A DNA stretch of 64,000 bases from Candidatus Gottesmanbacteria bacterium (GCA_963711735.1 CAVQFA010000005.1:199525-263524), one strand, 5' to 3'; counted from the stretch's first letter, positions 1 through 9,468 are shown. Translations and numbers: made by a program. Notes: generated from the sequence alone by a model not told the origin.

Positions 1-3000
1 GGACCAACAGGAGCTACCGGAGAAATTGGTCCGACTGGTTCTACTGGTTCAACCGGTGCCACAGGAATTCAGGGTCCAACCGGATCAACAGGTGCCACAG
101 GTGAGTTAGGTCCGACTGGTTCTACCGGTTCAACCGGATCTACTGGTCTTCAGGGTCCAACCGGAGCAACAGGTGAAACAGGACCATCAGGAGCAACAGG
201 AGAAATTGGTCCAACCGGTTCTACTGGTTCAACCGGATCAACAGGAATTGTAGGTCCGACGGGAGCAACCGGTGCAACCGGATCCACAGGTCTTCAGGGT
301 CCGACTGGTTCCACAGGAGCGACAGGAGAAACAGGACCATCCGGAGCTACCGGAGAAATTGGTCCGACTGGTTCTACTGGTTCAACCGGATCAACAGGAA
401 TTGCAGGTCCGACGGGAGCAACCGGTGCAACAGGAACAACCGGTCAACAAGGACCAACAGGAGCATCCGGTGCAACCGGAGAAACCGGACCAACAGGAGC
501 TACCGGAGAAATTGGTCCTACAGGATCTACAGGAAGTACGGGTGCAACAGGTCTTCAGGGTCCAACCGGATCAACAGGAGCCACAGGAGAAACCGGACCA
601 TCCGGTGCTACAGGAGAAATCGGTCCGACAGGATCAACTGGTTCAACCGGATCAACAGGAATTGCAGGTCCGACGGGAGCAACCGGTGCAACAGGAACAA
701 CCGGTCAACAAGGACCAACAGGAGCATCCGGTGCAACCGGAGAAACCGGACCAACAGGAGCTACCGGAGAAATCGGTCCTACAGGATCTACTGGTGCAAC
801 CGGATCCACAGGTCTTCAGGGACCAACCGGCTCTACAGGTTCCACAGGCTTATCCGGACCGACAGGAGCAACGGGAGAAATCGGTCCTACAGGATCTACA
901 GGAAGTACGGGTGCAACAGGTCTTCAGGGTCCAACCGGATCAACAGGAGCCACAGGTGAAACAGGTCCGACAGGAGCAACGGGAGAAATCGGTCCGACAG
1001 GATCAACTGGTTCAACCGGATCAACAGGAATTGCAGGTCCGACGGGAGCAACCGGTGCAACAGGAACAACCGGTCAACAAGGACCAACAGGAGCATCCGG
1101 TGCAACCGGAGAAACCGGACCAACAGGAGCTACCGGAGAAATTGGTCCGACTGGTTCTACTGGTTCAACCGGTGCCACAGGAATTCAGGGTCCAACCGGA
1201 TCAACAGGTGCCACAGGTGAAACAGGTCCGACAGGAGCAACGGGAGAAATCGGTCCTACAGGATCTACAGGAAGTACGGGTGCAACAGGTCTTCAGGGTC
1301 CAACCGGAGCAACAGGTGAAACAGGACCATCAGGAGCAACAGGAGAAATTGGTCCAACCGGTTCTACTGGTTCAACCGGATCAACAGGAATTGCAGGTCC
1401 GACGGGAGCAACCGGTGCAACCGGATCCACAGGTCTTCAGGGTCCGACTGGTTCCACAGGAGCGACAGGAGAAACAGGACCATCCGGAGCTACCGGAGAA
1501 ATTGGTCCGACTGGTTCTACTGGTTCAACCGGTGCCACAGGAATTCAGGGTCCAACCGGATCAACAGGAGCCACAGGTGAAACAGGTCCGACAGGAGCAA
1601 CGGGAGAAATCGGTCCTACAGGATCTACAGGAAGTACGGGTGCAACAGGTCTTCAGGGTCCAACCGGATCAACAGGAGCCACAGGTGAAACAGGTCCGAC
1701 AGGAGCAACGGGAGAAATCGGTCCGACAGGATCAACTGGTTCAACCGGATCAACAGGAATTGCAGGTCCGACGGGAGCAACCGGTGCAACAGGAACAACC
1801 GGTCAACAAGGACCAACAGGAGCATCCGGTGCAACCGGAGAAACCGGACCAACAGGAGCTACCGGAGAAATTGGTCCGACTGGTTCTACTGGTTCAACCG
1901 GTGCCACAGGAATTCAGGGTCCAACCGGATCAACAGGTGCCACAGGTGAAACAGGTCCGACAGGAGCAACGGGAGAAATCGGTCCTACAGGATCTACAGG
2001 AAGTACGGGTGCAACAGGTCTTCAGGGTCCAACAGGGTCAACCGGAGCAACAGGTGAAACAGGACCATCAGGAGCAACAGGAGAAATTGGTCCAACCGGT
2101 TCTACTGGTTCAACCGGATCAACAGGAATTGCAGGTCCGACGGGAGCAACCGGTGCAACCGGATCCACAGGTCTTCAGGGTCCGACTGGTTCCACAGGAG
2201 CGACAGGAGAAACAGGACCATCCGGAGCTACCGGAGAAATTGGTCCGACTGGTTCTACTGGTTCAACCGGTGCCACAGGAATTCAGGGTCCAACCGGATC
2301 AACAGGTGCCACAGGTGAGTTAGGTCCGACTGGTTCTACCGGTTCAACCGGATCTACTGGTCTTCAGGGTCCAACCGGATCAACAGGAGCGACAGGTGAA
2401 ACAGGACCATCAGGAGCAACAGGTGAGTTAGGTCCAACCGGTTCTACTGGTGCAACCGGATCAACAGGTCTTCAGGGTCCAACCGGATCAACAGGAGCCA
2501 CAGGTGAAACAGGTCCGACGGGAGCAACCGGTGCAACAGGAACAACCGGTCAACAAGGACCAACAGGAGCATCCGGTGCAACCGGAGAAACCGGACCAAC
2601 AGGAGCTACCGGAGAAATTGGTCCGACTGGTTCTACTGGTTCAACCGGTGCCACAGGAATTCAGGGTCCAACCGGATCAACAGGTGCCACAGGTGAAACA
2701 GGTCCGACAGGAGCAACGGGAGAAATCGGTCCTACAGGATCTACTGGTGCAACCGGATCCACAGGTCTTCAGGGACCAACCGGCTCTACAGGTTCCACAG
2801 GCTTATCCGGACCGACAGGAGCAACGGGAGAAATCGGTCCTACAGGATCTACAGGAAGTACGGGTGCAACAGGTCTTCAGGGTCCAACCGGATCAACAGG
2901 AGCCACAGGTGAAACAGGTCCGACAGGAGCAACGGGAGAAATCGGTCCGACAGGATCAACTGGTTCAACCGGATCAACAGGAATTGCAGGTCCGACGGGA

Positions 3001-9000: not shown

Positions 9001-9468
9001 GATCTTGAGTATAACTGGTTTGCATTCGCAGTAGAGAAAGGACGCCGGATCGTCGGAGCATCTGTTGACGGAACACCGTCAGGTATTACACCCATACCGA
9101 CATCACCGTTCGTTACAAAAGAAACACCCGCACTATTACCGACGAGTGTTCCGGTATTTACCGTAACACCGGCGCCGACTCCTATCATTGAGATGATTCC
9201 TGCAATAGCCGGAGCTAGCGCTTCTATTTCGGTAACACCGACACCTATACCGCAAAAGACAGAAGATGTGGTTATCGTTATCCCTAACGAATTCGGGTTT
9301 GTCCGTATGCGCGCGCGCGCGGACGGAGAGTCTGAAGAGGTTGGGTCTATACCGATTGGAGAGCGGGCGATTATTCTTGATGAATCATATGGATGGTATA
9401 AGGTATTGTATCGGGAATTGACAGGGTGGGTGAGCGGACTATACGTGCAAAAAGAAGTACCGCGATAG
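1..9468 (+). CDS. Giant collagen-like (Gly-X-Y) triple-helix repeat protein, 5'-partial (N-terminus beyond the window). It has ~1670 aa of Gly-X-Y, a globular beta domain, a second Gly-X-Y block (~5900-6880), a second copy of the globular domain, and a C-terminal SH3b-like domain.
   Basis: Frame 1 from nt 1 translates as [16 protein letters not shown].... Sampled stretches (1-360, 2281-2340, 3481-3780, 4201-4500, 4921-5060) have no stops and run directly into the tracked ORF 5020..9468, whose first ATG is merely the first Met in the same frame. Two globular copies share the motif GAMYYNAxxNxFRC(Y/F)xNxAW, which recalls the phage tail-fibre repeat. The C-terminus ...[20 protein letters not shown] is SH3b-like. 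Confidence 0.8.

What the first reader, a model, noticed from the sequence alone, without database searches (positions are those of the whole stretch)
1..9468. Multi-kilobase collagen-like 'tail-fibre' protein with duplicated globular domain and SH3b anchor
One open frame spans the first 9.5 kb and is truncated by the window edge. It has more than 1600 residues of uninterrupted Gly-X-Y, then a beta-rich domain with the motif [20 protein letters not shown] second Gly-X-Y block and a second, diverged copy of the same domain ([20 protein letters not shown]) follow. The C-terminus is an SH3b-like cell-wall-binding module. Collagen stalk, tail-fibre-repeat head and SH3b together are typical of phage fibres and Bacillus exosporium BclA-type proteins, not of a chromosomal gene next to housekeeping genes in a small-genome bacterium. 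It could mediate cell-cell attachment. The ORF track missed it because Gly-X-Y has no Met and the frame-2 read-through produced decoy ORFs.
Basis: partly seen in the sequence, partly recalled or inferred. Interest (0 to 1): 0.7.

Follow-up and report, generated by a model that had tools for sequence, protein, structure and literature searches.

The report
Giant collagen-like surface fibre, phage-style assembly
This is a real gene of more than 3,155 codons, probably from an ultra-small (CPR/Patescibacteria) bacterium, encoding a collagen-like cell-surface fibre over half a micrometre long with two TNF/C1q-type knobs and a self-cleaving assembly domain of the kind phage tail spikes use.

Summary
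Frame 1 of 1-9468 is one open frame of 3,155 codons, cut at the window edge. It has 561 uninterrupted Gly-X-Y triplets, a second Gly-X-Y block, a duplicated ~145-aa module and a C-terminal SH3b domain.

- The duplicated "GAMYYN..FRC" module (62% identity) is an unannotated "neck". It is not a Phage_fiber_2 repeat.
- The knobs lie after each neck. A2 and B2 share no detectable sequence similarity, but both model confidently as TNF/C1q/BclA-type jelly-rolls.
- This predicts autocleavage at A2579|D2580. Cleavage would detach the H-type lectin and the SH3b "anchor" from the fibre.

The gene is not foreign DNA. A positional orthologue has the same synteny, and hundreds of relatives occur in Patescibacteria. 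Its high GC is compositional.

Best reading: an N-terminally anchored trimeric adhesin fibre with swappable tips, matured in a procollagen-like way. The N-terminus and the cleavage remain untested. I rate it a new variant of a known kind.

The parts
1..5049 (+). Collagen-like block 1 (aa 1-1683). It has 561 uninterrupted Gly-X-Y triplets of the G-X-T type (GST 135, GAT 132, GPT 124; Thr in 78% of Y positions; no Lys or Arg). As a triple helix it would be about 480 nm long. The N-terminus lies outside the window.
5050..5490 (+). Neck module A1 (aa 1684-1830). It ends in the motif [23 protein letters not shown]. It belongs to a family widespread in Patescibacteria surface proteins and has no Pfam or PDB match.
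5491..5880 (+). Head A2 (aa 1831-1960), a TNF/C1q/BclA-type jelly-roll in a model with pLDDT 91.5. It belongs to a large unannotated family (1,351 cluster representatives), often found as three tandem copies in ~400-aa proteins.
5881..6900 (+). Collagen-like block 2 (aa 1961-2300), with 47+7+58 triplets and two short interruptions, about 97 nm long. The orthologue P0001 keeps the same pattern (49+7+50).
6901..7335 (+). Neck module B1 (aa 2301-2445), 62% identical to A1, with the motif [23 protein letters not shown].
7336..7725 (+). Head B2 (aa 2446-2575), a second TNF-like jelly-roll with no detectable sequence similarity to A2. It is the predicted distal tip of the mature fibre.
7726..8124 (+). 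Peptidase_G2-type intramolecular chaperone / autoproteolytic module (aa 2576-2708). The predicted scissile bond is A2579|D2580 (nt 7737|7738). Asp2580, Glu2583 and Tyr2585 are conserved in 101 of 102 homologues.
8125..8790 (+). Linker region of unknown fold (aa 2709-2930). About 40% of homologues conserve it, and the part that was modelled has low confidence.
8791..9036 (+). H-type lectin domain (aa 2931-3012), Pfam PF09458.
   Evidence: 29.3 bits vs cutoff 24; 24.1 bits in a longer query; present in about half of the homologues
9037..9285 (+). Pro/Thr-rich, presumably flexible linker (aa 3013-3095).
   Evidence: sequence
9286..9468 (+). Bacterial SH3 (SH3b, Pfam SH3_3) domain plus the stop codon (aa 3096-3155).
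   Evidence: 36.6 bits vs cutoff 27; weak PDB matches to cell-wall hydrolase SH3 domains 4krt and 2kq8
9472..10278 (+). Conserved downstream neighbour: a membrane-anchored protein orthologous to the LytR_C-domain protein that follows the orthologous fibre gene. Any functional link is unproven.
   Evidence: LytR_C genes also lie near the homologues in L002 and L054

Best explanation
The gene encodes one chain of a homotrimeric, collagen-stalked cell-surface fibre (adhesin) of a Patescibacteria/CPR-type bacterium.

Architecture, shown here from sequence and models:
- At least 1,683 aa of G-X-T collagen, then neck A1 and the TNF/C1q-like head A2.
- Then 340 aa of collagen, neck B1 and the TNF-like head B2.
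- Then a phi29 gp12-type Peptidase_G2 intramolecular chaperone, a linker, an H-type lectin, a Pro/Thr linker and an SH3b domain.

Mechanism, inferred:
- The chain is exported and held by an N-terminal hydrophobic anchor or signal, as in complete relatives.
- The C-terminal trimeric modules (G2 chaperone, jelly-rolls, H-lectin) bring three chains into register.
- They nucleate the triple helices, which zip from the C-terminal end towards the N-terminus.
- The SH3b and lectin domains may hold the folding C-termini at the peptidoglycan wall.
- Once the trimer has formed, the G2 module cuts its own chain at A2579|D2580, as gp12 does at S691|D692.
- This exposes head B2 as the distal receptor-binding knob of a stalk about 0.6 micrometres long.
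- It separates a 576-aa C-terminal 'propeptide'. This parallels removal of the procollagen C-propeptide.
- The heads are exchangeable specificity modules for binding a partner or host cell surface.
For: Open frame and Gly-X-Y blocks:
-.

Chromosomal setting:
- Housekeeping context.
- Positional orthologue P0001/L001 with the same module order and the same downstream genes.
- Named homologues come from Microgenomates, Gottesman-, Shapiro- and Moranbacteria and Saccharimonadales. There are 48 genome loci, mostly Saccharibacteria/Patescibacteria.

Head A2:
- Model pLDDT 91.5.
- Relatives occur directly after Gly-X-Y and as 3x tandem copies, as expected of a trimer-forming unit.

Head B2:
- Foldseek hits to Sf6/HS1 tail-needle knobs and BC2L-C-Nt.

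G2 module:
- 17 of 31 family members hit Pfam PF11962, best E 1.7e-9.
- A profile search of the PDB puts phi29 gp12 on top.
- hhalign against gp12 aa 680-854 gives 83.5% probability, E 8e-6, aligning 'GADxxEvY' with 'SDFAEYFE'.
- Mature gp12* ends at residue 691 (PMC6542822).
- D/E/Y are kept in 101 of 102 homologues, and the P1 residue is small (Ala 91, Ser 6).
- In jumbo phages the module forms the extreme C-terminus of virion structural proteins next to tail-fibre genes.

N-terminal anchor:
- Complete relatives with neck and G2 modules begin with a hydrophobic segment (Kyte-Doolittle 19-residue mean 1.9-3.1).
- They keep the ~160-180-aa spacing between neck motif and DxxE (also P0007, P0017, P0127).

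Tip exchange:
- Orthologue necks are 57-66% identical.
- The proximal tip of P0001 is not in the A2 family, and the distal tips are 28% identical.
Against: - The N-terminus is outside the window. It could not be recovered from any collection. All four collagen-bearing homologue contigs examined also break inside the repeat.
- The window copy of the G2 module scores below Pfam's threshold (16.7 vs 25 bits).
- Here the module is internal and followed by ~450 aa. In phi29 and the jumbo phages it is terminal, so cleavage may not occur or may serve another purpose.
- A conserved H-lectin downstream looks elaborate for a discarded propeptide, and this lineage adds an SH3b.
- Trimerisation, triple-helix formation without hydroxyproline, and autocleavage are all inferred. 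No multimer model was made.
- The taxonomic assignment rests on homologue names and synteny. The organism was not identified directly.
- The exact repeat length could be an assembly artefact, since 162-nt units are 98-99% identical.
Confidence: 0.55

Rival explanations
1. The architecture is the same but the G2-like module does not cleave and acts only as a trimerisation domain. The C-terminal H-type lectin and SH3b then form the working distal tip. On a fibre anchored by its N-terminus, they would bind glycans and peptidoglycan of a host cell, like a 'grappling line'.
For: - The lectin and SH3b pass Pfam thresholds.
- About half of the homologues keep the lectin after the G2 module.
- 96% of homologues have more than 250 aa after the DxxE site, unlike phage proteins, where the module is terminal.
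- Complete relatives have N-terminal anchors.
Against: - The Asp/Glu/Tyr motif at the gp12 cleavage position is kept in 101 of 102 homologues, with a small P1 residue. That is hard to explain by trimerisation alone.
- The tip domain immediately before the site is a TNF-like knob of the kind that ends phage needles and fibres.
- SH3b is rare in the family, present in P0002 and P0003 only among the top hits.
Confidence: 0.2
2. The C-terminal SH3b anchors the protein non-covalently in the cell's own peptidoglycan. The collagen stalk projects outwards, so the unseen N-terminus is the distal end.
For: - SH3_3 is a cell-wall-binding module in many wall hydrolases, with weak PDB matches 4krt and 2kq8.
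- The genome encodes a PBP2-type transpeptidase, so a wall exists.
- A LytR_C-domain envelope protein gene is a conserved neighbour.
Against: - The predicted autocleavage site lies between the fibre and the SH3b.
- Most family members lack SH3b but keep the rest of the layout.
- Complete relatives carry an N-terminal hydrophobic anchor or signal.
- In collagen/C1q/BclA-type and phage fibres, the jelly-roll knob is the distal end. This is established knowledge of those families.
Confidence: 0.15
3. The gene is a phage or prophage tail-fibre gene, or part of a phage-derived particle, sitting in the chromosome.
For: - The G2 chaperone module has homologues in phi29 and jumbo phages.
- Relatives of the A2 module occur in proteins that end in Peptidase_S74 chaperones and hit tail-fibre PHROGs.
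Against: - No phage genes flank it. The neighbours are a LytR_C-like gene, rpiB, rpe, transketolase and ribosomal protein genes.
- The same synteny holds in an orthologous contig.
- The window's own domains hit almost no PHROG families.
- The PHROG hits of relatives fall in their S74 parts, not on shared modules.
- GC3 does not suggest foreign DNA.
Confidence: 0.03
4. The protein is released entirely, with a cleavable signal peptide and G2 cleavage from a wall-bound C-terminal piece, as MyRF is released from its membrane anchor. It would then form an extracellular collagenous matrix or sheath rather than a cell-attached adhesin.
For: - Internal chaperone domains that free an N-terminal trimer from an anchored C-terminal fragment are known from MyRF (PMC8326128).
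- The SH3b could be that anchor.
Against: - Several complete relatives have long uncleaved-looking TM segments preceded by charged residues, for example L057, L068 and L099.
- Exchangeable knob domains suggest specific recognition rather than bulk matrix.
Confidence: 0.07

Closest known systems
BclA and F-BclA of Bacillus exosporium and endospore appendages, and more broadly the C1q / collagen VIII-X NC1 family
   Same: - A G-X-T-rich collagen-like stalk carries a trimeric TNF/C1q-type jelly-roll head.
- Thr dominates the Y position, as in BclA's GPT repeats (the BclA composition is from my own knowledge).
   Different: - There is no sequence-level match to the C1q or BclA families.
- The stalk is far longer: at least 561+112 triplets, against tens of triplets in BclA (the BclA figure is from my own knowledge).
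- There are two stalk-head tiers, with one head internal.
- Extra modules are present: neck, G2 chaperone, H-lectin and SH3b.
- The host is a non-sporulating CPR-type bacterium.
- The N-terminal targeting motif cannot be checked.
phi29 gp12 pre-neck appendage (tail spike) and its Peptidase_G2 autochaperone (PDB 3gqh, MEROPS family G2)
   Same: - Profile similarity is E 8e-6.
- The Asp-x-x-Glu motif is conserved at the position of the gp12 S691|D692 cleavage.
- The module sits directly after a trimeric receptor-binding part.
   Different: - The module is internal and followed by ~450 aa, whereas it is C-terminal in phi29 and the jumbo phages.
- The gp12 ~40-aa insertion is missing.
- The window copy is below Pfam's threshold.
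- The stalk is collagen rather than a beta-helix.
- Cleavage is untested.
Bdellovibrio 'mosaic adhesive trimer' fibres (e.g. Bd2734), phage tail fibres and tail-needle knobs (Sf6, HS1), and TNF-like lectins (BC2L-C-Nt, PLTL)
   Same: - These are trimeric fibres whose distal TNF-like knob is the exchangeable recognition module.
- Structural matches appear.
- Tips are swapped between orthologues while the necks stay conserved.
   Different: - The shaft type differs (collagen).
- No ligand is known.
- The similarity is at fold level only (6-16% identity).
Procollagen C-propeptide and the MyRF ICA domain
   Same: - In both, a C-terminal trimerising domain sets chain register and is then removed or separated by proteolysis.
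- MyRF shows that a phage-type chaperone domain can work internally (PMC8326128).
   Different: - These are analogies of mechanism only.
- The procollagen propeptide is unrelated and is cut by a separate protease.
- MyRF uses the S74 (Ser-Lys) chaperone type, not G2.

Membership tests
Bacterial collagen-like proteins (Pfam Collagen PF01391) | Long runs of Gly-X-Y triplets that match the Collagen profile | tested here: met
   There are 561 uninterrupted triplets plus 112 more. PF01391 scores 151 bits, E 6e-45, on the second block alone.
Bacterial collagen-like proteins (Pfam Collagen PF01391) | Formation of a stable triple helix | not testable with these tools
   The composition (8% Pro, 26% Thr, no Lys or Arg) resembles G-X-T collagens, but stability needs CD and melting experiments.
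BclA / C1q-type collagen-stalk proteins | Trimeric TNF/C1q jelly-roll head directly following the collagen region | tested here: inconclusive
   [not shown]
BclA / C1q-type collagen-stalk proteins | Sequence membership in the family profiles (Pfam C1q or BclA C-terminal domain) | tested here: not met
   No Pfam hit for aa 1674-1970 or aa 2294-2566 at E<=1. There is no PDB sequence hit either.
BclA / C1q-type collagen-stalk proteins | N-terminal exosporium-targeting region and a spore-forming host | not testable with these tools
   The N-terminus is outside the window. Homologue taxonomy points to Patescibacteria.
   No Pfam family at E<=1 for the window copies. Only noise appears for 24 family members. 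A profile search of the PDB finds nothing.
Peptidase_G2 intramolecular chaperone / autoproteolytic domain (PF11962, phi29 gp12) | Profile match above Pfam's gathering score | tested here: not met
   The window copy scores 16.7 bits against a cutoff of 25, E 0.005. Seventeen of 31 close family members match, with best E 1.7e-9.
Peptidase_G2 intramolecular chaperone / autoproteolytic domain (PF11962, phi29 gp12) | Fold of the gp12 C-terminal autochaperone fragment | tested here: met
   [not shown]
Peptidase_G2 intramolecular chaperone / autoproteolytic domain (PF11962, phi29 gp12) | Conserved Asp and Glu at the scissile site (gp12 D692 and E695; their catalytic role is from my own knowledge of Xiang et al. 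2009 and MEROPS G2) | tested here: met
   D2580 and E2583 align with gp12 D692 and E695. They are conserved in 101 of 102 homologues.
Peptidase_G2 intramolecular chaperone / autoproteolytic domain (PF11962, phi29 gp12) | C-terminal position in the protein and actual self-cleavage | tested here: inconclusive
   The position criterion is not met: 576 aa run from the site to the C-terminus, whereas the module is terminal in phi29 and the jumbo phages. Cleavage itself cannot be tested with these tools.
SH3b cell-wall-binding domains (Pfam SH3_3 PF08239) | Profile match above the gathering score | tested here: met
   36.6 bits against a cutoff of 27, covering profile positions 3-54 of 54.
H-type lectin (Pfam PF09458) | Profile match above the gathering score | tested here: met
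   29.3 bits against a cutoff of 24 for the isolated domain, and 24.1 bits in a longer query. Sugar binding was not tested.
Prophage or phage-derived gene cluster | Flanking phage structural or integration genes | tested here: not met
   The downstream genes are housekeeping, and synteny is conserved in L001. The upstream side is not visible.

The most novel reading that the evidence does not exclude
An ultra-small episymbiotic (CPR) bacterium builds a collagen triple-helical tether longer than its own cell, at least 0.6 micrometres. It would mature the fibre as animals mature procollagen: a C-terminal trimerising 'propeptide' nucleates the helix and is then excised. Here the excision would be done by a self-cleaving chaperone domain recruited from phage tail spikes. 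Interchangeable TNF/C1q-like knobs at two levels of the fibre would set host-cell specificity. The wall-binding lectin/SH3b propeptide would act as an assembly jig at the peptidoglycan.
Probability: 0.3. Interest if true: 0.8.

Novelty: new variant of a known kind. Interest (0 to 1): 0.6.

Why it matters
**Attachment of CPR bacteria.** Most CPR/Patescibacteria are thought to live attached to other microbes, yet few of their attachment molecules are known. This family is abundant: more than 200 homologues in one search and at least 318 loci in another. It has a clear modular logic of stalk, neck, exchangeable knob and self-cleaving chaperone. It is a concrete candidate for host recognition, and the predictions can be tested (cleavage site, tip swapping).

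**Collagen biology.** The protein contains one of the longest uninterrupted prokaryotic Gly-X-Y runs I know of, at 1,683 residues. Fibrillar animal collagens have about 1,000 (from my own knowledge). It couples that run to a phage-type autochaperone, which would be a new way to register and mature a collagen helix.

**Annotation practice.** Gene callers and assemblers systematically mangle these genes, producing wrong-frame decoy ORFs and contigs that end in the repeat. Their size and frequency are therefore underestimated in databases.

**Other families.** The A2-type jelly-roll family (about 1,350 cluster representatives) and the neck module have no Pfam model.

Tried and rejected
**Recovering the N-terminus or source genome.** All attempts failed.
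- Exact look-ups of the transketolase and of the ATG-started 1,482-aa product found nothing.
- A scan of the GTDB species genomes with head A found only distant neck-module relatives.
- An exact 41-mer was absent from the metagenome contigs.
- The contigs of homologues P0001, P0002, P0003 and P0005 all end inside the Gly-X-Y frame.

**Profile searches of the heads and neck.** Pfam, PHROGs and NCBIfam gave nothing. Phage_fiber_2 and C1q are therefore not supported at sequence level.

**Combined A1+A2 alignment for structure prediction.** I discarded it because MAFFT placed the A2 homologues over the A1 columns. The modules were predicted separately instead.

**Horizontal transfer as the cause of high GC.** Rejected: GC is 0.87 at codon position 2 and only 0.26 at position 3.

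**The phage-domain reading of A2.** Rejected: the tail-fibre PHROG and Peptidase_S74 hits of A2-bearing proteins lie in their C-terminal chaperone parts, and A2-only proteins hit nothing.

**Literature.**
- No relevant paper links collagen-like proteins with Patescibacteria or the candidate phyla radiation.
- The primary gp12 autocleavage paper (Xiang et al. 2009, PMC2692858) is not held. The catalytic roles of D692 and E695 are therefore from my own knowledge. Only the mature end at residue 691 is cited (PMC6542822).
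Full report
**1. The observation**

Translating frame 1 of window 1-9468 gives 3,155 codons with one stop, at 9466-9468. A stop-free run of that length cannot arise by chance.

The frame enters from the left edge of the window, so the N-terminus is missing. The mechanical ORF list shows only the ATG-started tail (5020-9468) and two long frame-2 decoys (272-2323 and 2450-5092). 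Frame 2 has only five stops in the first 5.1 kb.

**2. Anatomy** (aa numbering is within the truncated product; nt = 3 x aa)

| Part | Residues | What it is |
|---|---|---|
| Collagen block 1 | 1-1683 | 561 uninterrupted triplets |
| Neck A1 | 1684-1830 | Ends in [20 protein letters not shown] |
| Head A2 | 1831-1960 | TNF/C1q-type jelly-roll |
| Collagen block 2 | 1961-2300 | 47+7+58 triplets |
| Neck B1 | 2301-2445 | 62% identical to A1 over 144 aa, E 3e-69 |
| Head B2 | 2446-2575 | TNF-like jelly-roll |
| G2-like module | 2576-2708 | Most conserved part of the family (covered by 116-119 of 120 homologues) |
| Linker | 2709-2930 | Unknown fold |
| H-type lectin | 2931-3012 | 29.3 bits vs cutoff 24 |
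| Pro/Thr linker | 3013-3095 | Presumably flexible |
| SH3_3 | ~3096-3155 | 36.6 bits vs cutoff 27 |

- Block 1 is dominated by GST (135), GAT (132) and GPT (124). Thr fills 78% of Y positions, and there is no Lys or Arg.
- At 0.286 nm per residue, the two blocks would form triple helices of about 480 nm and 97 nm.
- At DNA level, block 1 is a nested tandem array with periods of 9 to 477 nt. It includes 162-nt units that are 98-99% identical. The copy number is therefore probably unstable, and its exact value depends on the assembly.
- A2 and B2 show no detectable sequence similarity to each other.

**3. Where it sits and who has it**

The gene's high GC (55-57% against 42-46% elsewhere) follows from its codons. 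GC is 0.87 at position 2 and only 0.26 at position 3, so it is not a sign of foreign DNA.

Downstream lie the following genes:
- a LytR_C-type membrane protein and a 23S_rRNA_IVP-family protein;
- rpiB, rpe and transketolase;
- a CTP-transferase/DUF359 protein;
- ribosomal proteins, nusG and tRNAs;
- a PBP2 transpeptidase and topoisomerase I;
- a 16S rRNA gene with no adjacent 23S.

No phage genes are present.

The best homologue, P0001, is a positional orthologue. It has the same order of modules, including a 49+7+50 pattern in block 2. It is followed by the LytR_C gene (41% identity to the window's), pentose-phosphate genes, rpiB, rpe, tkt, CTP-transferase/DUF359 and a GalT-like gene.

Homologues that carry a name come from Microgenomates, Gottesman-, Shapiro-, Moran- and Harrisonbacteria, Saccharimonadales and 'Patescibacteria group'. 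A species-genome scan with the neck motif returned 48 loci, mostly Saccharibacteria.

I therefore treat the organism as a CPR/Patescibacteria bacterium. This is an inference from homologue names and synteny; the source genome itself was not found.

**4. What the modules are**

*Neck (A1/B1).* Its family has no Pfam match and no PDB match, even with a 24-sequence profile. The Phage_fiber_2 suggestion is not supported. In collagen-bearing relatives the neck follows Gly-X-Y directly. In others it follows beta-helix-like repeats.

*Head A2.*
- An exhaustive search found 1,351 cluster representatives. They are either single copies inside large surface proteins or, most often, three tandem copies in ~400-aa proteins.
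- None of these match Pfam or PHROGs through this module. The tail-fibre hits of some carriers lie in their Peptidase_S74 ends.
- Some relatives follow Gly-X-Y directly.
- With a 44-sequence alignment, AlphaFold2 gives pLDDT 91.5.
- Three tandem copies in one chain are what a pseudo-trimeric single-chain version of such a head would look like (inference).

*Head B2 and the conserved module.* These were modelled together (pLDDT 85.3, confident over residues 9-272).
- B2 matches Pgp3 C-terminal domain, Sf6/HS1 tail-needle knobs, and the TNF-like lectins BC2L-C-Nt and PLTL. It also matches BxpB/ExsFA, BclA, C1q domains, collagen VIII NC1 and the Bdellovibrio fibre tip Bd2734.
- Both tiers are therefore 'neck + TNF-like jelly-roll'.

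*The conserved module is a phi29 gp12-type Peptidase_G2 autochaperone.*
- The window copy is sub-threshold in Pfam (16.7 vs 25 bits), but 17 of 31 close relatives hit PF11962, down to E 1.7e-9.
- The family profile's best PDB sequence hit is gp12.
- hhalign against gp12 residues 680-854 gives 83.5% probability and E 8e-6.
- The family's 'G-A-D-x-x-E-x-Y' aligns with gp12 'S-D-F-A-E-Y-F'.
- Chain 3gqh begins at that Asp, and mature gp12* ends at residue 691 (PMC6542822).
- Asp, Glu and Tyr are conserved in 101 of 102 homologues spanning the site. The preceding residue is small: Ala in 91 and Ser in 6.
- tblastn finds the module in 14 phage records of jumbo phages: PA5oct-type Pseudomonas phages, Sinorhizobium phage Phosso and Agrobacterium phage Atu_ph07.
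- In the two records examined (PA5oct, Phosso) it forms the extreme C-terminus of a protein, annotated as virion structural in PA5oct. In PA5oct that gene lies beside a long-tail-fibre gene.

**5. How it most likely works**

*Shown:*
- the module order;
- the folds of A2, B2 and the G2 module, from confident models;
- the conservation of the putative catalytic motif;
- the chromosomal, syntenic setting;
- the fact that complete relatives carrying neck plus G2 modules begin with a strongly hydrophobic N-terminal segment;
- the ~160-180-aa spacing those relatives keep between neck motif and Asp-x-x-Glu, with 280-510 aa following.

*Inferred:*
- Three chains are exported and held by their N-termini.
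- The trimeric C-terminal modules set the register and nucleate the collagen helices.
- The G2 module then cuts at A2579|D2580.
- B2 is left as the distal knob, and a 576-aa fragment (chaperone, linker, H-lectin, SH3b) is split off. That fragment may act as a wall-bound assembly jig.

The tips look like specificity modules. Between the window protein and its positional orthologue the necks are 57-66% identical. The proximal tip, however, belongs to a different family, and the distal tips are only 28% identical.

*Rival readings.* The main rival keeps the chain intact and makes the lectin plus SH3b the distal host-binding end. Neither can be excluded without the N-terminus and a cleavage experiment. 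A prophage origin is very unlikely.

**6. Comparison with what is known**

It works like a BclA/C1q-type collagen-stalk-and-knob fibre fused to a phage-tail-spike maturation device.
- It is a member of the bacterial collagen-like proteins, and it carries bona fide SH3_3 and H_lectin domains.
- It is not a sequence member of the C1q, BclA or Phage_fiber_2 families.
- Its G2 module meets the fold and motif criteria, but not Pfam's score or the usual terminal position.

I found no paper describing collagen-like proteins in Patescibacteria/CPR. That search covers only the held open-access library.

**7. Verdict**

This is a real and unusually large gene.

It is a new variant of a known kind. Its interest lies in five things:
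- the scale of the stalk;
- the two-tier architecture;
- the predicted procollagen-like self-processing;
- tip swapping between orthologues;
- its likely role in attachment by an ultra-small bacterium.

The main uncertainties are the missing N-terminus, the untested cleavage and trimerisation, the exact repeat length, and the indirect taxonomic assignment.

Noticed in passing
P0123-P0125, P0141, P0145 and most hits (relatives of window 5476-5880): A large unannotated family, 1,351 cluster representatives at E<=1e-3, is built from the A2-type jelly-roll. Most members are ~400-aa proteins with exactly three tandem copies and no Pfam or PHROG match. They may be single-chain pseudo-trimers of a TNF/C1q-like head.
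   Followed up: partly
window 9472-10278; L001 6244-6981; L002 10846-11613; L054 10785-11462: A gene for a membrane-anchored LytR_C-domain protein sits immediately downstream of the fibre gene, both here and in the positional orthologue (41% identity). Similar genes lie within a few kb of two other homologues. This may be a functional partner, for example in wall attachment.
   Followed up: partly
L001 67-1647; L054 157-657; window 272-2323 and 2450-5092: Public gene calls over these Gly-X-Y regions are wrong-frame decoy ORFs, and the real genes are started at internal Met codons. All four collagen-bearing homologue contigs examined end inside the repeat. Database entries for this family are therefore systematically truncated.
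   Followed up: yes
window 3709-4265 and 4453-4907: Two arrays of a 162-nt unit (54 aa) are 98-99% identical between copies, far more than the rest of the repeat (periods 108-477 nt at 65-84%). This suggests very recent tandem duplication and likely length variation between strains, or assembly uncertainty.
   Followed up: partly
L061 (>=6,056 aa, 8 neck motifs), L112 (>=5,384 aa), L059 (>=3,852 aa), L062/L064 (3,239 aa): Other metagenomic relatives of the neck module are giant non-collagen proteins that reuse the neck motif up to eight times. Some end with the same G2-like module. The neck appears to be a general joint of very large surface fibres.
   Followed up: no
L051 2969-4405 (Pseudomonas phage PA5oct gp359) and L052 2516-4396 (Sinorhizobium phage Phosso): These jumbo-phage proteins (PA5oct gp359 is annotated as a virion structural protein, the Phosso one only as hypothetical) end in a ~130-aa domain homologous to the G2-like module, with Asp and Glu conserved. 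They are not annotated as self-cleaving. PA5oct gp359 was detected by MS according to the record.
   Followed up: partly
window 58351-59920, 60348-60740 and 61184-61239: A complete 16S rRNA gene is followed by tRNA-Cys and tRNA-Ile but by no 23S within the remaining 4 kb, so the rRNA genes are unlinked. Rfam also reports a partial tRNA-like match at 61184-61239 (33.5 bits, model positions 9-63) that ARAGORN does not call.
   Followed up: no
window 10211-10678; L001 8531-8872: A 23S_rRNA_IVP-family (four-helix-bundle) gene, just under Pfam's threshold at 32.6 vs 33.8 bits, lies within the same downstream gene block in both genomes: between the LytR_C gene and rpiB here, and among the pentose-phosphate genes upstream of rpiB in the orthologous contig.
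   Followed up: no
window 23945-24940 and 24930-27032 (minus strand); 20617-22425 (minus strand): A cohesin-domain protein (30.6 bits) overlaps the end of a 700-aa ORF that has no Pfam match. Another 602-aa ORF also has no match. These may be further surface or secreted proteins of unknown function.
   Followed up: no
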